Under the pieces are notes generated by a model that did not search any database, was not told the DNA's origin, and worked only from the letters and a program-made list of their open reading frames with translations. A stretch of DNA of 27,453 nt from a virus. Shown piece after piece: positions 2,957 through 10,392 of the stretch. Both the position numbers and the translations under genes were made by a program. Each line of letters begins with the position of its first letter. Position 1 is the stretch's first letter. The stretch lies in the UHGV virus genome UHGV-1341913, one strand, 5' to 3'.

Positions 2957-3266
2957 AAGACCCCGGCAGTTTTACGGTGTACCTCTTGAATGTTATTCTT
3001 ATAGCGGCAAGTGCATGCTACCCCGAGGTGATGGCCAATCGGGAGTACGCCTCAAGGCCTATATATCCATCAGTATATATCTTATCCTCGAGAAATCGAA
3101 CCCGGAACCTTTAAGCTAACGGTGTGCAACAGATAAGAGCTATAAGGTATGTTGACGAGGTTTATGGTTATCCTGTCGGTAAATATTCAAAACCTAAGTA
3201 CCCCCTTGAGGGCTTTCGCAGGCAATGCCAATAAGTCCTGCATTTTCATTTAAAAGAGAATTTATA

Positions 3267-3443
3267 ATGGCAAAACAAGCTAAAGCAAAGAAAGCAGTTG
3301 AAAAGAAAGTTGGTGATTCTAAACGCGCTGGCTACAAGCGTGGGTCGAACTCTCGTATCAATCAAACTGTTGAGAAGATCATGCGCCGAGCACGTGCGGT
3401 TCTTCGAGATGATGCTTCTCGTTTTGGTAAGCAGAAAGCATAA
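3267..3443 (+). CDS. small basic hypothetical protein (30.9 position)
   Basis: ORF track begins at ATG 3225, but that start has no RBS. The in-frame ATG at 3267 is preceded by aaaagagaa and gives a 58-aa lysine/arginine-rich protein (MAKQAKAKKAVEKK...). Confidence 0.6.
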   Translation: MAKQAKAKKAVEKKVGDSKRAGYKRGSNSRINQTVEKIMRRARAVLRDDASRFGKQKA

Positions 3444-3446
3444 GTT

Positions 3447-3473
3447 GAGGACTCCTTCGGGAGTCCTTTTTTA
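3447..3473 (+). terminator. rho-independent terminator (UUCG-loop hairpin plus T-run)
   Basis: GGACTCC-TTCG-GGAGTCC stem-loop directly followed by TTTTTT, just after the 30.9 stop. Confidence 0.7.
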
Positions 3474-3496
3474 TTTTCCAAAGATTGAATAAAGTT

Positions 3497-3526
3497 GTTT
3501 ACAGTATGATTCCTTTGTGATAGTAT
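3497..3526 (+). promoter_or_regulatory. T4 early-type promoter (GTTTAC -35, TAGTAT -10)
   Basis: GTTTAC at 3497..3502, 18-nt spacer, TAGTAT at 3521..3526, upstream of the 3554 ORF. Confidence 0.5.
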
Positions 3527-3553
3527 TATCTTACACAAACAAAGGAGAATAAA

Positions 3554-3886
3554 ATGAAAACGATTAATCTGAACGCTGCAGTTAAAACTAAATGCTTCAA
3601 TGGTAAATATGATGAAACTATGTGGTTCTTAATGGCAGTTGAAGGTGATATCATTGAAGTAGAAACAACAGAAGGTATGGGAACAGATTTCACCTTTACA
3701 ATTCAAGTTCATAATTTCTTTACTGGTTGGATTTATGAATTGAATACAATAATCGTTGGAAAAATTGAACAAAATGAATTAGGTGAATGGTATTATGTTA
3801 CAGCTCGCCAACGTGCCGAACGCTTAATTGAGAAGATGAAAAAAGTTGGTAAACTTGACATGCAGCATTGGAAAGTAGTAAAATAA
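3554..3886 (+). CDS. hypothetical early protein (30.8 position)
   Basis: 110-aa ORF with RBS aaaggaga before the ATG. Confidence 0.6.
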   Translation: MKTINLNAAVKTKCFNGKYDETMWFLMAVEGDIIEVETTEGMGTDFTFTIQVHNFFTGWIYELNTIIVGKIEQNELGEWYYVTARQRAERLIEKMKKVGKLDMQHWKVVK

Positions 3887-3888
3887 TT

Positions 3889-3917
3889 GTTTACTTTGGT
3901 ACAGGATATGATATTAT
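3889..3917 (+). promoter_or_regulatory. T4 early-type promoter (GTTTAC -35, TATTAT -10)
   Basis: GTTTAC at 3889..3894, 17-nt spacer, TATTAT at 3912..3917. An 8-bp inverted repeat GGTACAGG / CCTGTACC (3898..3905 and 3921..3928) brackets the -10 element. Confidence 0.55.
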
Positions 3918-3941
3918 ATACCTGTACCGCAATTAAACATC

Positions 3942-4319
3942 TTGGAGAATAAAATGAACTACATTAACTTTGAACGTAAATATGTTTCTAACGGTATTGC
4001 AGGTTCTATTGATACTATCTGCCTTTGGAAACATCAAAATGGATCAGTATGCGAAATTGAACAGTATATGACTCCTAACTACGTTTATATGCGATTTGAA
4101 AATGGCATCACGGTTTCAATCACGAAAGAAGGTTCTTCTTTTAAAATCGCTCTGGATGATGATTTCCGTCAACGTGATTTAGGGACTCATCCTTGCTGGA
4201 ATGGCGTCAATCGTAAACTTCTGGTTAAAACTTGGATTCGTCATATTCTGAGTAACAGAGCTAAACCTGAGCATCTTGAAGCAATCTTTGATGTAGTTCT
4301 TAACGAATTTGATATTTAA
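3942..4319 (+). CDS. hypothetical early protein (30.7 position)
   Basis: 125-aa ORF with RBS ggaga. Confidence 0.6.
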   Translation: MENKMNYINFERKYVSNGIAGSIDTICLWKHQNGSVCEIEQYMTPNYVYMRFENGITVSITKEGSSFKIALDDDFRQRDLGTHPCWNGVNRKLLVKTWIRHILSNRAKPEHLEAIFDVVLNEFDI

Positions 4320-4327
4320 AATAAAAT

Positions 4328-4345
4328 GAGGGGCTTCGGCCCCTT
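4328..4345 (+). other. stable UUCG-tetraloop RNA hairpin (no T-run)
   Basis: AGGGGC-TTCG-GCCCCT between 30.7 and 30.6. It is not followed by a U-tract, so it is more likely an mRNA-stabilising or processing hairpin than a terminator. Confidence 0.5.
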
Positions 4346-4360
4346 ACTGAGGAAAATACT

Positions 4361-4648
4361 ATGTTTATGACTACTTATTTTGATACCCGCAAAAATTTCT
4401 GTGAAGTGGTTTTCTCTAAGGCGCCTAAAGATCTTCCTGCTCATTTGCAACCTACCAGCGAATCGATTAAAAACTACGTTAATGTAGTATGTCCTTTAGA
4501 GTTCCGTACTGTAAATGGGCGCGATACTTTAGCTATCACTAAACTCAATCGTGAAATTGACATTGACCCTTCAATTGCGTGTGAAATTAACATTTCTGAT
4601 ATTGGCGGCGGTAATGTTAAATCGCACGGTTTTCAGATGAGGTTCTAA
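4361..4648 (+). CDS. hypothetical early protein (30.6 position)
   Basis: 95-aa ORF with RBS gagg. Confidence 0.6.
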   Translation: MFMTTYFDTRKNFCEVVFSKAPKDLPAHLQPTSESIKNYVNVVCPLEFRTVNGRDTLAITKLNREIDIDPSIACEINISDIGGGNVKSHGFQMRF

Positions 4649-4845
4649 TGAAATTCTTTTTAGGTCAAACTGTTGAATTAAAGGGAGTTGGTATACCTGG
4701 ATTAATTTCTAAGGTTCTACCTCCATTTAAATGGAGTGGTATTCAAATAAAAGAGGCTTATATTGTTTCCTGGGTAGATGGAAATGAAGACCTTCGTATG
4801 GGCGATGAATTATCTCCTATTTACGGATTAAAGGAATTAGTATGA
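4648..4845 (+). CDS. hypothetical early protein (30.5 position)
   Basis: 65-aa ORF, start overlaps upstream stop (TAATG). Confidence 0.5.
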   Translation: MKFFLGQTVELKGVGIPGLISKVLPPFKWSGIQIKEAYIVSWVDGNEDLRMGDELSPIYGLKELV

Positions 4846-5048
4846 ATATAATTAATAAGATTTTTGGAATTCAGTATATTAAGGTCACATATAAAGTAAC
4901 AGATAAAAATCCATATACTGATGAACATGAAGAACCACAAGTTGAGTCTATTATATTAGAAAAGGACCCTAACTGGCCAGTTGAATTTCGTCTTCCTTGC
5001 TATGGTCATTGGGCTGATGTTGAAATTATAAGTATTGAAAATGTCTGA
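4842..5048 (+). CDS. hypothetical early protein (30.4 position)
   Basis: 68-aa ORF with ATGA overlap to the upstream ORF. Confidence 0.5.
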   Translation: MNIINKIFGIQYIKVTYKVTDKNPYTDEHEEPQVESIILEKDPNWPVEFRLPCYGHWADVEIISIENV

Positions 5049-5499
5049 GCTAGAGATAAGAAGCAATTTTAAATGGCCATCATGCGCATTAAGTAATTTC
5101 GCCCAATGGCCTTTCGTTATGGATGGTATTCAATTTGGAGGTCTCGAAGGATTCCTCCAAGGATGCAAGGTGAAAAATGTTGAACAGCAACGTCGTATAT
5201 TTGGGTTATCCGGGCTTGCCGCCCAACAAGCTGGAAGGTCTTGTGCTAGAGCTCAGGACCGTGGGACCCTCTTTTGGCTTGGAGTTCCGTTTTCAAGATA
5301 CTCACCGGCGTGGAAAGAATTATACACAAATGCATATTTTGAAGCAGCGTTCCAAAACAAGGGCTTTCGTGATGCATTACAAGCCTCGAAAGGAAAAGTT
5401 TTGAAGCACAGCATGGCTAGTGGTCTAACAAAAGATGATACAATACTAACCGAAGCTGAATTTATTGATGTGTTAAACCTATTAAGAGACTCTCTATGA
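5035..5499 (+). CDS. NADAR / YbiA-like (DUF1768) domain protein (30.3 position)
   Basis: 154-aa ORF. The segment LSNFAQWPFVMDGIQF...EGFLQ resembles the FSNFAAWPIKVDG...EHYFQ core of E. coli YbiA (NADAR family). The central part of the gene is conspicuously GC-rich (62 of 120 nt G+C over 5161..5280 by hand count). Confidence 0.6.
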   Translation: MKMSELEIRSNFKWPSCALSNFAQWPFVMDGIQFGGLEGFLQGCKVKNVEQQRRIFGLSGLAAQQAGRSCARAQDRGTLFWLGVPFSRYSPAWKELYTNAYFEAAFQNKGFRDALQASKGKVLKHSMASGLTKDDTILTEAEFIDVLNLLRDSL

Positions 5500-6335
5500 A
5501 GCCAACTATTTTGACTGATATTGATGGAGTATGTTTAAGCTGGCAATCAGGACTTCCTTATTTTGCTCAGAAATATAATCTTCCGTTAGAACATATTTTA
5601 AAAATGATCCAAGATGAGAAATTTATTTCTCCAGGTAAACTCTTTAATTGTGATGAAGAACTTGGCGTCAAGTTAATTGAAAAATACAATCGATCAGATT
5701 TTATTCGTTACTTGTCTCCATATAAAGATGCCCTGTGTGTAATTAACAAATTAAAAGAAGATTATAATTTTGTAGCTGTTACAGCATTAGGTGATTCTAT
5801 TGACGCTCTGTTGAATCGTCAATTTAATTTGAATGCTCTTTTTCCTGGTGCCTTCTCAGAAGTAATGATGTGTGGTCATGATTCTTCAAAAGAAGAGCTG
5901 TTCAAAAAGGCAAAAGAGAAGTATAACGTAATTTGTTATATTGACGATCTTGCTCACCACTGCGACCACGCGAGTGAAATATTAAATGTTCCGGTTTATT
6001 GGATGGCTCGAGGAGAGCGTGACAATATTCCAAAAACTGCGCAGCGAGTTTATACATGGAATGATGTAGAAAATAAGCTTTTTTCGCCGAAGGAAAATAA
6101 AGAAAGTTTTGATAGTGAAAAAGCTATAAAAGATTTAATTGAGAAGATGGTTAAAAACGATTCTTTTCCTTGGAACACTACCTGGAGAACGCCTGGATTT
6201 AATCCTTATAATCATCTATATCATCCATATCAGACACATCCGTTTCAGACATGGAACTACATTAAACCTGGTGGCATAGAGTATTTGTATAATAGACCTA
6301 CTAGCGGTGATAATATTTTCCAAGGAGCATTCTAA
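5496..6335 (+). CDS. HAD-like hydrolase domain protein (30.2 position); putative phosphatase or nucleotidase
   Basis: 279-aa ORF. N-terminus TILTDIDGVCL fits HAD motif I (hhhhDxDx[T/V]), and a later YIDDLAHH fits the acidic motif IV. Functional call is an inference from motifs only. Confidence 0.5.
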   Translation: MKPTILTDIDGVCLSWQSGLPYFAQKYNLPLEHILKMIQDEKFISPGKLFNCDEELGVKLIEKYNRSDFIRYLSPYKDALCVINKLKEDYNFVAVTALGDSIDALLNRQFNLNALFPGAFSEVMMCGHDSSKEELFKKAKEKYNVICYIDDLAHHCDHASEILNVPVYWMARGERDNIPKTAQRVYTWNDVENKLFSPKENKESFDSEKAIKDLIEKMVKNDSFPWNTTWRTPGFNPYNHLYHPYQTHPFQTWNYIKPGGIEYLYNRPTSGDNIFQGAF

Positions 6336-6604
6336 TGTTTGTTGTTCACACTATTTATGAAAATGAAGGTAATACTACACGTGATTATGGTCACGTAAAT
6401 CAATTTTTTAGATGCAATCCAGAATTCCGAGCTCAAAAAGACGAACGAATTTTTAAAAAATGTGTAGAGCAAGGTTTCATTTACGTTAAGCACTGGATGC
6501 AAGGAAATAAAGTTAGAACTACATATCATAGGTCTTTGCCTGAGCTTAATGATGAATTGATTTATAATAGAGCTGTAAACCAAACCTTGAAGGATGAGCA
6601 ATGA
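6335..6604 (+). CDS. hypothetical early protein (30.1 position)
   Basis: 89-aa ORF, start overlaps the upstream stop. Confidence 0.5.
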   Translation: MFVVHTIYENEGNTTRDYGHVNQFFRCNPEFRAQKDERIFKKCVEQGFIYVKHWMQGNKVRTTYHRSLPELNDELIYNRAVNQTLKDEQ

Positions 6605-8061
6605 TTCTTAAAATTCTGAATGAAATAGCATCTATTGGATCAACTAAGCAGAAGCAAGCAATTCTTGAAAAGAATAAAGATAATGAATTGCTTAAACGAG
6701 TATATCGTCTGACTTATTCTCGTGGGCTACAGTATTATATCAAGAAATGGCCTAAACCTGGTATTGCTACCCAGAGTTTTGGAATGCTGACTATTACCGA
6801 TATGCTGGACTTCATTGAGTTCACGTTAGCTACTCGGAAATTAACTGGCAATGCAGCAATTGAGGAATTAACTGGATATATCACTGATGGTAAAAAGGAT
6901 GATGTTGAAGTTTTGCGTCGAGTTATGATGCGAGATCTTGAATGCGGTGCTTCAGTATCTATTGCAAATAAAGTTTGGCCAGGTTTAATTCCTGAACAAC
7001 CTCAAATGCTGGCAAGTTCTTATGATGAAAAAGGCATTAATAAGAATATCAAGTTTCCAGCCTTTGCGCAGTTAAAAGCAGATGGAGCTCGGTGTTTTGC
7101 TGAAGTCCGAGGCGATGAATTAGATGATGTTCGTCTTTTATCACGAGCTGGTAATGAATATCTAGGATTAGATCTTCTTAAGGAAGAGTTAATCAAAATG
7201 ACTGCAGAAGCCCGCCAGATTCATCCAGAAGGTGTGTTAATCGATGGCGAATTAGTATACCATGAGCAAGTTGAAAAGGAGCCAGAAGGCCTAGATTTTC
7301 TTTTTGACGCTCCTGAAATCAGTAAAGCTAAAGAGTTTTCCGAAGTAGCTGAATCACGTACTGCTTCTAATGGAATCGCCAATAAATCTTTAAAGGGAAC
7401 TATTTCAGAAAAAGAAGCTCAATGCATGAAGTTTCAGGTCTGGGATTATGTCCCATTAGTAGAAATATATGGTCTTCCGGCGTTTCGTTTAAAATATGAT
7501 GTACGTTTTTCTAAACTAGAACAAATGACATCAGGATATGATAAAGTAATTTTAATTGAAAACCAGGTAGTAAATAACCTAGATGAAGCTAAGGTAATTT
7601 ATAAAAAATATATTGACCAAGGTCTTGAAGGTATTATTCTCAAAAATACCGATGGATTGTGGGAAAATGCTCGTTCAAAAAATCTCTATAAATTTAAAGA
7701 AGTAATTGATGTTGATTTAAAAATTGTAGGAATTTATCCTCACCGTAAAGACCCTACTAAAGCAGGTGGATTTATTCTTGAATCAGAGTGTGGAAAAATT
7801 AAAGTAAATGCTGGTTCAGGCTTAAAAGATAAAGCCGGTGTAAAATCGCATGAACTTGACCGTACTCGCATTATGGAAAACCAAAATTATTATATTGGAA
7901 AAATTCTAGAGTGCGAATGTAATGGTTGGTTAAAATCTGATGGCCGCACTGATTACGTTAAATTATTTCTTCCGATTGCGATTCGTTTACGTGAAGATAA
8001 AACTAAAGCTAATACATTCGAGGATGTATTTGGTGATTTTCATGAGGTAACTGGTCTATGA
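6601..8061 (+). CDS. 30: ATP-dependent DNA ligase
   Basis: 486-aa ORF with the adenylation motif KADGAR (lysine in QLKADGARCF). Sequence recognised as T4 DNA ligase (MILKILNEIASIGSTKQKQAILEKNKDNELLKRVYRLTYSRGLQYYIKKW...). Confidence 0.95.
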   Translation: MILKILNEIASIGSTKQKQAILEKNKDNELLKRVYRLTYSRGLQYYIKKWPKPGIATQSFGMLTITDMLDFIEFTLATRKLTGNAAIEELTGYITDGKKDDVEVLRRVMMRDLECGASVSIANKVWPGLIPEQPQMLASSYDEKGINKNIKFPAFAQLKADGARCFAEVRGDELDDVRLLSRAGNEYLGLDLLKEELIKMTAEARQIHPEGVLIDGELVYHEQVEKEPEGLDFLFDAPEISKAKEFSEVAESRTASNGIANKSLKGTISEKEAQCMKFQVWDYVPLVEIYGLPAFRLKYDVRFSKLEQMTSGYDKVILIENQVVNNLDEAKVIYKKYIDQGLEGIILKNTDGLWENARSKNLYKFKEVIDVDLKIVGIYPHRKDPTKAGGFILESECGKIKVNAGSGLKDKAGVKSHELDRTRIMENQNYYIGKILECECNGWLKSDGRTDYVKLFLPIAIRLREDKTKANTFEDVFGDFHEVTGL

Positions 8062-8295: not shown

Positions 8296-10392
8296 ATGAT
8301 GGAACTCATTACAGAATTATTTGACGAAGATACTACTCTTCCGATTACAAACTTAAATCCAAAGAAGAAAATACCGCAAATTTTTTCAGTTCATGTTGAT
8401 GACGCAATTGAACAACCAGGCTTTCGTTTGTGTACCTATACATCTGGAGGTGATACTAATCGCGATTTAAAGATGGGCGATAAAATGATGCATATTGTTC
8501 CTTTTACATTAACTGCTAAAGGTTCAATTGCTAAATTAAAAGGTCTCGGTCCAAGCCCAATTAATTACATCAATTCAGTTTTTACTGTTGCAATGCAAAC
8601 GATGCGTCAGTATAAAATTGATGCCTGTATGCTCCGTATTCTTAAGTCTAAAACTGCTGGTCAAGCTCGTCAAATTCAACTTATTGCTGATAGACTTATC
8701 CGCAGTCGTTCAGGTGGCAGATACGTCCTTCTTAAGGAACTCTGGGATTACGATAAAAAGTACGCATATATTCTTATACATCGCAAAAATGTATCATTAG
8801 AAGACATTCCAGGAGTTCCGGAAATTAGTACAGAGCTCTTTACTAAAGTTGAATCGAAGGTCGGCGATGTTTATATCAATAAAGATACCGGAGCTCAAGT
8901 AACTAAAAATGAGGCCATTGCAGCATCTATTGCGCAAGAAAACGATAAACGTTCTGACCAAGCTGTAATCGTTAAAGTTAAAATTTCCCGTAGAGCAATT
9001 GCACAAAGTCAATCATTAGAATCTTCTAGATTTGAAAGTGAATTATTCCAGAAGTATGAATCTACCGCAGCTAATTTCAATAAACCTGCTACCGCTCCTT
9101 TAATTCCCGAAGCAGAAGAAATGAAACTTGGAATTAATTCATTAGCTTCTAAAACCAAGGCAGCAAAAATTATTGCCGAAGGAACCGCAAATGAACTTCA
9201 TTATGATTATAAATTCTTTTCAAAAAGTGAGGTTGATGAAGTTTCTGAAAAGATTAAAGATGTAATTCTTAATGCGATTAAAAATGAACCAACTACTTCA
9301 ATAAAATGTTTAGAGAAATACGCAGCAGCTGTTAATCAATTCTTTGAAGAATATAAAGATAATTGGCTTGATAAACACAATAAAACTCGTAAAGGACAGA
9401 CAGATGAAGTCTGGGAAGAAATAACTAAAAATTCCTGGAACGCAGCAAAAACTAAATTCCTCAAAAGAATGATTTATAGCTTTTCTGGAATTGGTGCAGG
9501 TCCAATGATTGATATTACTATTGCCCGCGATGGTTCTAAATATACTCCATCACAAAAGCGCGGCATTAGAGAGTATTGTGGTTCAGGATATACTGACATC
9601 AATAATCTTCTTTTAGGACGCTACAATCCAGAACGATATGATGTAATGAGTGAAAAAGAAATTGAATCTGCGATAAATAATTTAGATTCAGCCTTTGAAA
9701 ATGGTGACCGTATACCAGAAGGCATTACAGTTTATCGTGCTCAAAGCATGACTGCTCCTATATACGAAGCACTAGTTAAAAATAAAGTGTTCTATTTCAG
9801 AAATTTTGTATCTACTTCTTTAACTCCTATCATTTTTGGACGTTTTGGAATTACGCATGCTGGTATTGGTCTTTTAGAACCAGAAGCTCGTAATGAATTG
9901 ACAGTTGATAAAAATGAAGAAGGAATAACTATTAATTCAAACGAAATAAGAGCGTATAAAGAAAATCCCGAATACGTTAAAGTTCAAATAGGATGGGCAA
10001 TTGATGGAGCTCATAAAGTTAATGTTGTATATCCAGGAAGCCTCGGAATAGCAACAGAAGCTGAAGTTATTCTACCACGCGGATTGATGGTCAAAGTTAA
10101 TAAAATAACTGATGCTTCTAATAATGACGGAACAACATCTAATAATACAAAACTCATTCAAGCTGAAGTTATGACTACGGAAGAACTCACTGAATCAGTA
10201 ATTTATGACGGTGACCGTCTAATGGAAACTGGTGAAGTAGTTGCAATGACAGGTGATATTGAAATAGAAGACAGAGTTGACTTTGCATCATTTGTTTCAT
10301 CAAATGTTAAACAAAAAGTAGAATCATCTCTTGGAATTATTGCATCTTGCATAGATATTGCAAGCATGCCTTACAAGTTCATTCAAGGATAA
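8296..10392 (+). CDS. alt: ADP-ribosyltransferase Alt (virion-packaged; modifies host RNA polymerase)
   Basis: 698-aa ORF (an alternative start at 8299 gives MELITELF, the T4 Alt N-terminus as I recall it). C-terminal region carries the R-S-E class ART motifs: YRAQ, FVSTSL, EAEVILPRG. RBS agagagga. Confidence 0.88.
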   Translation: MMELITELFDEDTTLPITNLNPKKKIPQIFSVHVDDAIEQPGFRLCTYTSGGDTNRDLKMGDKMMHIVPFTLTAKGSIAKLKGLGPSPINYINSVFTVAMQTMRQYKIDACMLRILKSKTAGQARQIQLIADRLIRSRSGGRYVLLKELWDYDKKYAYILIHRKNVSLEDIPGVPEISTELFTKVESKVGDVYINKDTGAQVTKNEAIAASIAQENDKRSDQAVIVKVKISRRAIAQSQSLESSRFESELFQKYESTAANFNKPATAPLIPEAEEMKLGINSLASKTKAAKIIAEGTANELHYDYKFFSKSEVDEVSEKIKDVILNAIKNEPTTSIKCLEKYAAAVNQFFEEYKDNWLDKHNKTRKGQTDEVWEEITKNSWNAAKTKFLKRMIYSFSGIGAGPMIDITIARDGSKYTPSQKRGIREYCGSGYTDINNLLLGRYNPERYDVMSEKEIESAINNLDSAFENGDRIPEGITVYRAQSMTAPIYEALVKNKVFYFRNFVSTSLTPIIFGRFGITHAGIGLLEPEARNELTVDKNEEGITINSNEIRAYKENPEYVKVQIGWAIDGAHKVNVVYPGSLGIATEAEVILPRGLMVKVNKITDASNNDGTTSNNTKLIQAEVMTTEELTESVIYDGDRLMETGEVVAMTGDIEIEDRVDFASFVSSNVKQKVESSLGIIASCIDIASMPYKFIQG

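What the first reader, a model, noticed from the sequence alone, without database searches (positions are those of the whole stretch)
3267..6604. Nine consecutive small early ORFs (30.9 to 30.1) form a host-takeover or anti-defence candidate island
Between rIII and DNA ligase lie nine tightly coupled ORFs of 58 to 279 aa, driven by at least two GTTTAC/TATAAT early promoters and punctuated by UUCG hairpins. Apart from the NADAR and HAD-like members, none has an obvious function, and one (30.9) is a highly basic 58-aa protein. Blocks of small early genes in T-even phages are where inhibitors of host defences and host macromolecular synthesis are typically found.
Basis: inference. Interest (0 to 1): 0.4.

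Follow-up and report, generated by a model that had tools for sequence, protein, structure and literature searches.

The report
Known T4 genes 30.9–30.1 accessory block
This stretch is the well-known, dispensable block of small genes 30.9 to 30.1 of a T4-type phage. One of them (30.3, AdfN) is already proven to disarm a bacterial defence, and the other eight still have no demonstrated role.

Summary
Nine same-strand ORFs (58-279 aa) fill 3267-6604 between rIII and DNA ligase, with two T4-type early promoters and two UUCG hairpins.

They are the T4 genes 30.9-30.1, at 96.7-100% amino-acid identity to T4. The block is therefore already known.

- gp30.3 is AdfN, a NADAR DNA ADP-ribosylglycohydrolase shown in 2025 to neutralise the DarTG1 defence. 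The window's copy is full length and keeps E36 and K43.
- gp30.2 is an intact HAD phosphatase. Its predicted fold is closest to 5'(3')-deoxyribonucleotidases. It sits directly upstream of ligase in all seven T4-like lineages compared, so it looks like a nucleotide or DNA-metabolism partner rather than an island passenger.
- gp30.1 is fused to the gp30.2 HAD domain in one natural variant.
- The other six are ORFans restricted to T4-like phages.

Published T4 transposon sequencing calls all nine non-essential on E. coli K-12. Under DarTG1 only 30.3, and more weakly the upstream 30.4, are depleted.

Gene content between rIII and 30.2 varies strongly between genera and is mosaic. The best description is a shuffled accessory cluster with one proven counter-defence gene, not a coherent island.

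In passing: a ~145-nt covariation-supported structured RNA lies just upstream of 30.9. It is absent from T4 and from Rfam.

The parts
3267..3443 (+). Gene 30.9: a 58-aa, very basic (pI 11.4) ORFan found only in T4-like phages
   Evidence: 100% identical to T4 gp30.9. Matches PHROG 1427, function unknown. Only 4 clusters were found among 1.84 billion representative proteins. Non-essential in T4.
3447..3478 (+). UUCG-loop hairpin plus T-run: an intrinsic-terminator-like site that ends the rIII / 30.9 unit. It is the stem-loop half of a PeSL-type cassette.
   Evidence: 9-bp stem, -15.4 kcal/mol, z -4.0. PeSL definition taken from PMC4122927.
3497..3526 (+). T4-type early promoter upstream of 30.8 (GTTTACA, 17-nt spacer, TAGTAT)
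   Evidence: Fits the T4/PST PeSL promoter consensus TTTACW-N17-TAYWAT with one mismatch.
3554..3886 (+). Gene 30.8 (110 aa): fast-diverging ORFan with GGAG in its Shine-Dalgarno region
   Evidence: Pfam Phage_30_8, E 4.6e-59. Only 39-44% identical in Mosigvirus and Jiaodavirus, where neighbouring genes are 94-96% identical. GGAG in the ribosome-binding region.
3889..3929 (+). T4-type early promoter upstream of 30.7 (GTTTACT, 16-nt spacer, TATTAT), overlapped by a 14-bp hairpin at 3897-3929
   Evidence: Hairpin -16.1 kcal/mol, z -5.2.
3954..4319 (+). Gene 30.7 (121 aa): ORFan. Its mRNA is a known RegB cleavage target in T4 (GGAG in the Shine-Dalgarno region).
   Evidence: Pfam Phage_T4_Gp30_7, E 1.3e-51. 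RegB target per PMC9409239. GGAG present. Homologs found only in T4-like phages.
4327..4346 (+). UUCG-loop hairpin between 30.7 and 30.6 with no T-run. Probably an RNA stability or processing element rather than a terminator (inference).
   Evidence: 8-bp stem, -14.1 kcal/mol, z -3.3.
4361..4648 (+). Gene 30.6 (95 aa): ORFan, first gene of the overlapping run 30.6 through 30
   Evidence: PHROG 2153. Replaced by an unrelated gene in Mosigvirus.
4648..4845 (+). Gene 30.5 (65 aa): ORFan
   Evidence: 100% identical to T4. PHROG 1690.
4842..5048 (+). Gene 30.4 (68 aa, acidic): ORFan that overlaps the start of 30.3 by 8 nt
   Evidence: Second significant hit under DarTG1 in T4 transposon sequencing (log2FC -1.79, adjusted p 0.014). 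Homologs detected only where a T-even-type 30.3 is present.
5041..5499 (+). [quoted passage not shown]
   Evidence: 97.4% identical to T4 AdfN, full length (152 aa), E36 and K43 present. Pfam Phage_30_3. A family profile's top PDB hit is the NADAR protein YbiA. Function shown in PMC11825919 and confirmed by HIDEN-SEQ.
5177..5404 (+). Embedded ORF 30.3' (75 aa), in another frame inside 30.3, as annotated in T4
   Evidence: 94.7% identical to T4 gp30.3'.
5496..6335 (+). Gene 30.2: HAD-superfamily phosphatase with a C1 cap (residues 1-~195) plus a disordered tail carrying a conserved GIEYLxxQPT motif. A predicted nucleotidase.
   Evidence: D8, D10, A97 (the conserved VTALG motif-II segment; T96 at least 90% conserved), K132 invariant, and D150-D151 at least 90% conserved in 40 homologs. 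AF2 pLDDT 83. Top PDB matches are 5'(3')-deoxyribonucleotidases. Phage 5'-nucleotidases are its neighbours in BFVD. Always immediately upstream of ligase.
6335..6604 (+). Gene 30.1 (DUF3045, 89 aa), overlapping 30.2 and ligase. Likely partner of gp30.2.
6601..8061 (+). Gene 30, DNA ligase: essential, last gene of the overlapping run. Context only, not part of the block.
   Evidence: 98.6% identical to T4 gp30. Essential in T4.
2998..3145 (+). Context just outside the finding: a structured RNA candidate in the rIII-30.9 spacer, on the same strand and upstream of 30.9
   Evidence: 153-bp insertion relative to T4. 44 predicted pairs, 20 with compensatory changes, against 7.5 +/- 2.0 in shuffles. 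No Rfam or tRNA match.

Best explanation
The region is the gene 30.9-30.1 block of a Tequatrovirus (a T4 relative). It is a non-essential accessory cluster built from independently acting genes, not one machine.

Transcription (inferred from sequence and from T4 knowledge): host RNA polymerase starts early at T4-type promoters before 30.8 and 30.7. It then reads through the overlapping run 30.6-30.5-30.4-30.3-30.2-30.1 into the essential ligase gene. 30.9 belongs to the upstream rIII unit, which ends at the UUCG terminator.

Functions:
- Shown in T4 and transferred here by 97% identity: gp30.3 (AdfN) removes the ADP-ribose that the DarT1 toxin places on guanines of phage DNA. This allows replication in DarTG1 hosts.
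- Inferred from motifs, fold and synteny: gp30.2 is an active HAD phosphomonoesterase of the deoxyribonucleotidase type. It works on a nucleotide in the DNA-metabolism setting of ligase, probably together with gp30.1.
- Unknown: 30.9, 30.8, 30.7, 30.6, 30.5 and 30.4 are small ORFans restricted to T4-like phages. They are gained, lost and swapped between phages, probably by recombination at hairpin/promoter cassettes. They are most likely host-specific adaptive factors.
For: Identity: 932 phage records match the block, the best at 97.6%. Each protein is 96.7-100% identical to T4 gp30.1-30.9.

AdfN: PMC11825919 shows it is necessary and sufficient against DarTG1 and has in-vitro glycohydrolase activity. 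In T4 transposon sequencing 30.3 has log2FC -7.25 under DarTG1. E36, K43 and the full C-terminus are present here. A family profile's best PDB hit is the NADAR protein YbiA, aligned over the catalytic motif.

gp30.2: the HAD catalytic motifs are conserved in 40 homologs: D8, D10, A97 of the motif-II VTALG segment and K132 invariant, T96 and D150-D151 at least 90%. The model is confident. Its best solved-structure matches are cdN/mdN deoxyribonucleotidases. It lies directly upstream of ligase in T4, Mosigvirus, Jiaodavirus, Karamvirus, Acinetobacter phage 133, Slopekvirus KP27 and Tulanevirus Aes012. It occurs in 1440 phage records. A HAD + DUF3045 fusion exists.

Accessory nature: all nine are called non-essential in T4 on K-12, while ligase and gene 31 are essential.

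Plasticity and mosaicism: 30.3 is absent from Mineola, Pet-CM3-4 and Aes012. 30.6 and 30.4 are patchy. In Mosigvirus SHSML-52-1, 30.3, 30.7 and 30.9 are 94-97% identical to the window while 30.8, 30.4, 30.1 and ligase are 39-63%. Hybrid and deletion variants exist (P0131).

Promoters and hairpins. They fit the PeSL terminator/promoter cassettes proposed to drive shuffling in T4-type phages (PMC4122927).
Against: - All functional data come from T4, not from this phage.
- No activity or substrate is known for gp30.2. Insertions in it have no phenotype on K-12 or under DarTG1.
- The promoters are identified by sequence and position only, and the generic promoter scan is at chance level.
- The claim that the genes act independently is an absence-of-evidence argument. 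Only a handful of defence systems have been screened.
- The 30.4 signal under DarTG1 could mean that 30.4 and 30.3 work together.
Confidence: 0.75

Rival explanations
1. A coherent anti-defence island: most or all of the nine products are inhibitors of host immune systems, clustered as in the T4 dmp-tifA-adfA (61.x) region.
For: One member is a proven counter-defence enzyme. The nearby alt gene is reported to counter Mokosh type I. All nine are dispensable on a defence-poor lab strain. Gene content is variable and mosaic, and 30.8 diverges fast. These are typical signatures of arms-race genes.
Against: None of the other eight is significant in the T4 DarTG1 table that I read, apart from a weak 30.4 signal, and none is among the hits the paper reports for RexAB, RnlAB, CBASS, DarTG2, uropathogenic isolates or Mokosh. 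There are no PADLOC, Pfam or PDB links to defence or anti-defence families. gp30.2 is conserved with ligase across very distant T4-like phages, unlike a typical anti-defence passenger.
Confidence: 0.15
2. A host-takeover cluster: the small early proteins bind and shut off host transcription, translation, replication or division machinery.
For: Early sigma-70-type promoters lie in front of 30.8 and 30.7. 30.8 and 30.7 carry RegB-type GGAG sites, typical of very early transcripts. gp30.9 is strongly basic, as nucleic-acid binders are.
Against: No homology or fold links any product to a known shut-off factor. All are dispensable for growth on K-12, although classical shut-off genes such as alc are also listed with many insertions there. 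No toxicity data were found in the searched literature.
Confidence: 0.1
3. For the promoter-distal half only: 30.4-30.3-30.2-30.1-30 form a DNA-hygiene operon. AdfN cleans ADP-ribosylated bases, the HAD nucleotidase (with gp30.1) removes an unwanted nucleotide, and ligase seals nicks. gp30.4 assists AdfN.
For: The reading frames overlap from 30.6 to 30. 30.3-30.2-30 are adjacent even in Acinetobacter phage 133. A 30.2-30.1 fusion exists. 30.4 is depleted under DarTG1 and co-occurs with T-even-type 30.3. The AdfN paper reports that AdfN of T4 needs an unidentified T4 factor for full activity.
Against: Insertions in 30.2 and 30.1 have no effect under DarTG1 (log2FC -0.12 and -0.01). 30.2 persists in phages that lack 30.3. 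The 30.4 effect is small and could be polar on the overlapping 30.3 start. However, insertions in 30.1 just upstream of essential ligase are tolerated.
Confidence: 0.3

Closest known systems
Bacteriophage T4 genes 30.9, 30.8, 30.7, 30.6, 30.5, 30.4, 30.3 (with 30.3'), 30.2, 30.1 (NC_000866 127205-130540)
   Same: Same order, strand, lengths and junctions. Proteins are 96.7-100% identical.
   Different: Only point substitutions and one extra residue in gp30.2. The upstream rIII-30.9 spacer carries a 153-bp insertion that T4 lacks.
AdfN (T4 gp30.3), an orphan DarG1-like NADAR antitoxin (Johannesman et al. 2025, PMC11825919)
   Same: 97.4% identical, 152 aa, catalytic E36 and K43, and an intact C-terminal helix that is truncated in the inactive RB69 allele.
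   Different: Four substitutions (R11K, Y68C, I104F, I125M). Activity of this allele has not been tested.
5'(3')-deoxyribonucleotidases of the HAD superfamily (cdN/mdN, PDB 2jao, 2i7d, 1mh9) and phage 5'-nucleotidases, including T5 Dmp, which counters the Kongming defence by depleting dAMP (10.1101/2024.12.20.629578)
   Same: gp30.2 has the DxDGV motif I and the other HAD catalytic motifs, a helical C1 cap, and its best structural matches are to these enzymes. T5 Dmp also carries DxDGT.
   Different: Only 14-18% identity to the solved enzymes. It is not an ortholog of T5 Dmp, because hhalign aligns motif I only. It has an extra ~85-residue disordered tail with a GIEYLxxQPT motif. Substrate is unknown, and there is no phenotype so far.
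PeSL (promoter-early stem-loop) cassettes and hyperplastic regions of T4-type phages (Arbiol 2010, PMC2839356; Comeau 2014, PMC4122927)
   Same: A stem-loop/terminator followed by a TTTACW-N17-TAYWAT early promoter lies in the 30.9/30.8 gap. Small ORFans differ between related phages around it.
   Different: Only one gap shows the canonical stem-loop-then-promoter order. In the 30.8/30.7 gap the hairpin overlaps the promoter, and the 30.7/30.6 gap has a hairpin only. I did not test recombination at these sites.

Membership tests
T4 gene block 30.9-30.1 | Orthologous proteins in the same order between rIII and gene 30 | tested here: met
   All nine proteins plus rIII, gp30 and alt.1 are 94.7-100% identical to T4 and collinear with it.
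NADAR superfamily / AdfN (gp30.3) | Sequence membership in the gp30.3 family and similarity to NADAR proteins | tested here: met
   Pfam Phage_30_3, E 6.6e-69. A profile of six homologs has E. coli YbiA (2b3w) as its top PDB hit. That hit is marginal (E 0.046) but lies over the catalytic motif. There is no direct hit to the general NADAR Pfam model.
NADAR superfamily / AdfN (gp30.3) | Catalytic residues E36 and K43, and the complete C-terminal helix that is lost in the inactive RB69 allele | tested here: met
   E36, K43 and 152 aa present. The requirement is taken from PMC11825919.
NADAR superfamily / AdfN (gp30.3) | Removes ADP-ribose from guanine in DNA and rescues the phage on DarTG1 hosts | not testable with these tools
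   Shown for the T4 protein. Transferred here by 97.4% identity.
HAD phosphatase superfamily (gp30.2) | Four catalytic motifs: DxD, S/T, K, DD | tested here: met
   D8xD10, A97 of the VAVTALG motif-II segment, and K132 are invariant in 40 homologs of 34-76% identity; T96 (the motif-II Thr) and D150-D151 are conserved in at least 90%.
HAD phosphatase superfamily (gp30.2) | Rossmann-like core with a cap domain inserted after motif I (C1 type) | tested here: met
   AF2 model with pLDDT above 90 over residues 1-190. 109 PDB matches at E of 0.001 or better, all of the top matches listed (best 50) being HAD enzymes.
5'(3')-deoxyribonucleotidase (NT5C-type) subfamily (gp30.2) | Closest structural neighbours and nucleotide substrate specificity | tested here: inconclusive
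   The top Foldseek hits are cdN/mdN and a deoxyribonucleotidase-like protein (target-normalised TM 0.65-0.71). Dehalogenases and epoxide hydrolases score similarly. There are no Pfam or NCBIfam hits. Substrate is untested.
Phage anti-defence island | Two or more proven anti-defence genes clustered | tested here: inconclusive
   One lies inside the block (adfN). alt, 1.7 kb downstream, is reported as an anti-Mokosh factor. The other eight have no assigned target.
Phage anti-defence island | Dispensable on a permissive host, early-expressed, variable content between relatives | tested here: met
   Non-essential in T4. Early-type promoters present. Presence/absence and mosaic identity across genera.
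PeSL cassette | Stem-loop followed within a few tens of nt by TTTACW-N17-TAYWAT | tested here: met
   Hairpin 3447-3468, then TTTACA-N17-TAGTAT at 3498-3526, with one mismatch in the -10 box. The other two gaps do not show the canonical arrangement.

The most novel reading that the evidence does not exclude
Further counter-defence functions are hidden in the block.
(a) gp30.2, with gp30.1 as partner, is a deoxynucleotide phosphatase that blunts nucleotide-derived immune signalling or nucleotide-pool attacks. This would parallel T5 Dmp against Kongming.
(b) gp30.4 is the unidentified T4 helper that AdfN needs for full activity.
(c) The basic gp30.9 works with the newly noticed structured RNA that almost always precedes its gene.
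Probability: 0.2. Interest if true: 0.55.

Novelty: already known. Interest (0 to 1): 0.25.

Why it matters
The finding re-identifies annotated T4 genes, so it matters little as a discovery.

The remaining value is as a short list for experiments.
- An intact, widely conserved HAD nucleotidase is welded to DNA ligase, and its substrate is unknown.
- A small acidic protein (gp30.4) scored under DarTG1 in published data but was not discussed there.
- Six ORFans restricted to T4-like phages sit in a region that recombines freely between phage genera.

Tried and rejected
Hypotheses tested and rejected
- gp30.2 as the missing AdfN cofactor. Insertions in 30.2 are neutral under DarTG1 (log2FC -0.12), and 30.2 persists where 30.3 is absent.
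- gp30.2 as an ortholog of T5 Dmp. hhalign aligns motif I only.
- 30.7 and 30.8 as paralogs. There is no similarity between them.
- The RNA element as a tRNA, as a relative of T4 rnaC or rnaD, or as any Rfam family. The only weak hits there are the terminator hairpin.

Searches that gave no functional lead
- Sequence searches for the nine proteins against NCBIfam, PADLOC and PDB returned nothing.
- Pfam returned only self-named families.
- PHROGs matches are all 'unknown function'.
- gp30.9: a full HMMER scan of 1.84 billion representatives found four clusters, none with an identifiable relative outside the family.
- gp30.7: homologs come only from T4-like phages.
- No MotA-box middle promoters were found inside the block with a simple pattern.
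- The T4 records hold no promoter annotation here.

Unproductive literature searches
- Gene numbers, gp names and accession numbers returned unrelated papers.
- The Kongming preprint says nothing retrievable about T4.

Full report
**What the region is**

The window is a T4-type phage, read in the opposite orientation to the T4 reference. The 3.4-kb stretch matches 932 phage records, the best at 97.6% nucleotide identity.

They lie between rIII (2619-2867) and DNA ligase (6601-8061). Translated and aligned to the annotated T4 genes, they are gp30.9 through gp30.1 at 96.7-100% identity. gp30.9 is 58 aa with pI 11.4, as stated. The embedded ORF 30.3' is also conserved.

**Anatomy**

Junctions:
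- 30.9, 30.8, 30.7 and 30.6 are separated by 110, 67 and 41 nt.
- 30.6, 30.5, 30.4, 30.3, 30.2, 30.1 and ligase overlap by 1-8 nt.

So six, not nine, genes are tightly coupled, and they are coupled to the essential ligase gene.

GTTTAC occurs twice on the + strand of the block, and both copies are in intergenic gaps:
- 3497: TTTACA-N17-TAGTAT, before 30.8.
- 3889: TTTACT-N16-TATTAT, before 30.7.

The generic promoter scan is no better than chance (24 against 22.1). The evidence is therefore position plus near-identity to T4, not the consensus match.

Hairpins:
- 3447-3468 has a UUCG loop followed by a T-run, like a terminator after 30.9.
- 4327-4346 has a UUCG loop and no T-run.
- 3897-3929 is a third strong hairpin overlapping the 30.7 promoter.

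The hairpin-then-promoter arrangement in the 30.9/30.8 gap fits the PeSL cassettes described for T4-type phages (TTTACW-N17-TAYWAT; PMC4122927). 30.8, 30.7 and 30.1 have GGAG in their ribosome-binding regions. The 30.7 transcript is a known RegB target in T4 (PMC9409239). A late-promoter motif TATAAATA at 2472 precedes rIII. I infer that rIII, the spacer and 30.9 form a unit closed by the 3447-3468 terminator.

**gp30.3 is AdfN**

Johannesman et al. (Nat Commun 2025, PMC11825919) found that T4 gene 30.3 encodes a NADAR-family ADP-ribosylglycohydrolase. It removes DarT1-added ADP-ribose from DNA.
- It is necessary and sufficient for T2/T4 resistance to DarTG1.
- It does not counter DarTG2.
- Mutating either E36 or K43 to alanine leaves only partial rescue of RB69 on DarTG1.
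- It loses function when the C-terminal helix is truncated, as in RB69.

The window's protein is 152 aa, differs from T4 at four positions, and keeps E36 and K43. A profile of six homologs has the NADAR protein YbiA as its best PDB hit. The E-value is marginal (0.046), but the alignment covers the catalytic motif.

An independent T4 transposon-sequencing study (HIDEN-SEQ, bioRxiv 10.1101/2025.11.20.689424) confirms that 30.3 is conditionally essential under DarTG1.

**Experimental status of the other eight**

The HIDEN-SEQ supplementary table classifies 30.1-30.9 all as non-essential on E. coli K-12, with essentially every TA site hit. Gene 30 and gene 31 are essential.

Under DarTG1 there are two significant genes:
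- 30.3: log2FC -7.25.
- 30.4: log2FC -1.79, adjusted p 0.014.

30.5 is low but noisy, and 30.2 and 30.1 are neutral. The paper reports a single hit (tk.4) for DarTG2. It reports other genes (rII, dmp, 57B, alt, nrdC.1) for RexAB, RnlAB, CBASS, Mokosh I and Septu. I did not read every per-condition table, so absence of weaker 30.x effects in those is taken from the text.

The 30.4 signal may be a polar effect on the overlapping 30.3 start. However, insertions in 30.1 just upstream of essential ligase are tolerated. [quoted passage not shown] 30.4 homologs are detectable only where a T-even-type 30.3 is present. This is a lead, not a result.

**gp30.2**

No Pfam, NCBIfam or PDB sequence hit was found. 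An alignment of 40 homologs at 34-76% identity shows the HAD motifs well conserved: D8xD10, A97 in the VTALG motif-II segment and K132 are invariant, and T96 and D150-D151 are conserved in at least 90% of the sequences. The N-terminal ~195 residues are conserved. The C-terminal tail is variable, with a recurring GIEYLxxQPT motif.

The AlphaFold model is confident over the HAD core and cap and disordered in the tail. Its best solved-structure matches are cytosolic and mitochondrial 5'(3')-deoxyribonucleotidases and a deoxyribonucleotidase-like protein. Other capped HAD enzymes score close behind. Viral structural neighbours include many phage 5'-nucleotidases.

gp30.2 homologs occur in 1440 phage records. 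The gene lies immediately upstream of ligase in seven lineages as distant as Acinetobacter, Aeromonas and Slopekvirus phages. I infer a nucleotide phosphomonoesterase tied to DNA metabolism.

A precedent for such an enzyme acting in counter-defence is T5 Dmp, which depletes dAMP and so blocks Kongming signalling. gp30.2 is not its ortholog, and no phenotype is known.

**gp30.1**

gp30.1 (DUF3045) overlaps both 30.2 and ligase. One natural protein (P0015) fuses the HAD domain to a DUF3045 domain, which suggests that they work together. Its model (pLDDT 75) has no significant fold match.

**The ORFans**

30.9, 30.8, 30.7, 30.6, 30.5 and 30.4 match only families of unknown function. They have no hits in NCBIfam or PADLOC. 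gp30.9 has four clusters in 1.84 billion representatives. gp30.7 has only T4-like relatives.

**Plasticity**

tBLASTn of the nine proteins against the same locus in other genera shows a conserved 30.2-ligase core and a variable segment between rIII and 30.2.
- 30.3 is missing in Jiaodavirus Mineola, Karamvirus Pet-CM3-4 and Tulanevirus Aes012.
- 30.6 and 30.4 are patchy.
- Unrelated ORFs fill the gaps.

Identity is mosaic. In Mosigvirus SHSML-52-1, 30.3, 30.7 and 30.9 are 94-97% identical to the window, while 30.8, 30.4, 30.1 and ligase are 39-63% identical. This indicates recent exchange of single genes. It is consistent with the recombination by which AdfN was mapped. A 30.7/30.3 hybrid protein (P0131) documents a deletion variant.

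**Verdict on the finding**

The block does contain a bona fide anti-defence gene and has the hallmarks of accessory, arms-race DNA. It is not shown to be a functional island. Its best-conserved member looks like a ligase-linked metabolic enzyme, and nothing speaks to host takeover. Everything in the stated coordinates is already annotated in T4, and the one assigned function is published. Interest is therefore low.

**Noticed just outside the coordinates**

The rIII-30.9 spacer is 399 nt here against 244 in T4, owing to a 153-bp insertion. Its ~135-nt core is 94-96% identical in Klebsiella, Raoultella and Enterobacter T4-like phages and 85% in Serratia phage Muldoon. The flanking spacer does not align at all in those phages.

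An exact-core scan of viral contigs added more variants. Seventeen distinct sequences align to a closed multi-helix structure with these properties:
- 44 predicted pairs, 96.9% of cells paired.
- 20 pairs changed on both sides, against 7.5 +/- 2.0 in shuffles and at most 8 in slid controls.
- Several G-U pairs favour the + strand.
- There is a GAAA loop and two invariant single-stranded stretches.

The element lies between rIII and 30.9 in every locus where the flanking genes could be seen; the one clear exception is JC221 (near uvsY), and one locus ends before the 30.9 position. A covariance model finds one copy in the window (177 bits). It finds none in the T4, Mosigvirus, Acj133, KP27, Aes012 or Karamvirus loci.

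It is not a tRNA, not rnaC or rnaD, and not in Rfam. It may be a leader of 30.9 or an independent small RNA. I could not tell which.

Noticed in passing
window 2998-3145 (+), in the rIII-30.9 spacer: A ~145-nt structured RNA candidate with strong covariation across 17 variants from several T4-like genera. 20 of 44 pairs have compensatory changes, and 0 of 500 shuffles reach that number. It lies between rIII and 30.9 in all but one locus where both flanks are visible. It is absent from T4 (153-bp indel) and has no Rfam or tRNA match.
   Followed up: yes
window 4842-5048 (gene 30.4): In published T4 transposon data, 30.4 is the second significant gene under DarTG1 (log2FC -1.79, adjusted p 0.014), but I found no mention of it in the passages of the main text that I read. 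This is either a polar effect on the overlapping adfN start or the unidentified helper of AdfN. 30.4 homologs are seen only where a T-even-type 30.3 is present.
   Followed up: partly
window 5496-6335 (gene 30.2), residues ~196-279: The disordered C-terminal tail carries a short motif, G(I/T)GIEYLxxQPT, conserved in many enterobacterial T4-like phages. The tail is absent from the short forms in Acinetobacter, Aeromonas and Slopekvirus phages. It could be a docking peptide.
   Followed up: no
protein P0015 (a metagenomic relative of 30.2 and 30.1): A natural 302-aa fusion of the gp30.2 HAD domain with a DUF3045 (gp30.1) domain. This suggests that the two proteins act together.
   Followed up: partly
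locus L002 (Shigella phage SHSML-52-1) compared with the window: Sharp mosaic. 31, rIII, 30.9, 30.7 and 30.3 are 93-97% identical to the window, while 30.8, 30.5, 30.4, 30.2, 30.1 and ligase are 39-75% identical. 30.6 is replaced by an unrelated 204-aa ORF. This indicates gene-sized recombination tracts between genera.
   Followed up: partly
window 3897-3929 (+): A 14-bp hairpin (-16.1 kcal/mol, z -5.2) spans the spacer and -10 box of the early promoter before 30.7. It would form only in read-through RNA from 30.8.
   Followed up: no
window ~3198-3213 (+), and the same place in T4, Mineola, Muldoon and JC221: A small conserved motif, GUACCC-UUNN-GGGC, follows the RNA element and is kept even in T4. 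It does not fold stably on its own in the window (z +0.7).
   Followed up: no
protein P0131 (a metagenomic relative): A 154-aa hybrid with both gp30.7 and gp30.3 Pfam domains. This is apparently a deletion joining 30.7 to 30.3, with 30.6-30.4 lost.
   Followed up: no
window 8296-10392 (alt): The Alt ADP-ribosyltransferase ORF is 698 aa here against 682 aa in T4. T4 Alt was recently reported to help evade Mokosh type I.
   Followed up: no
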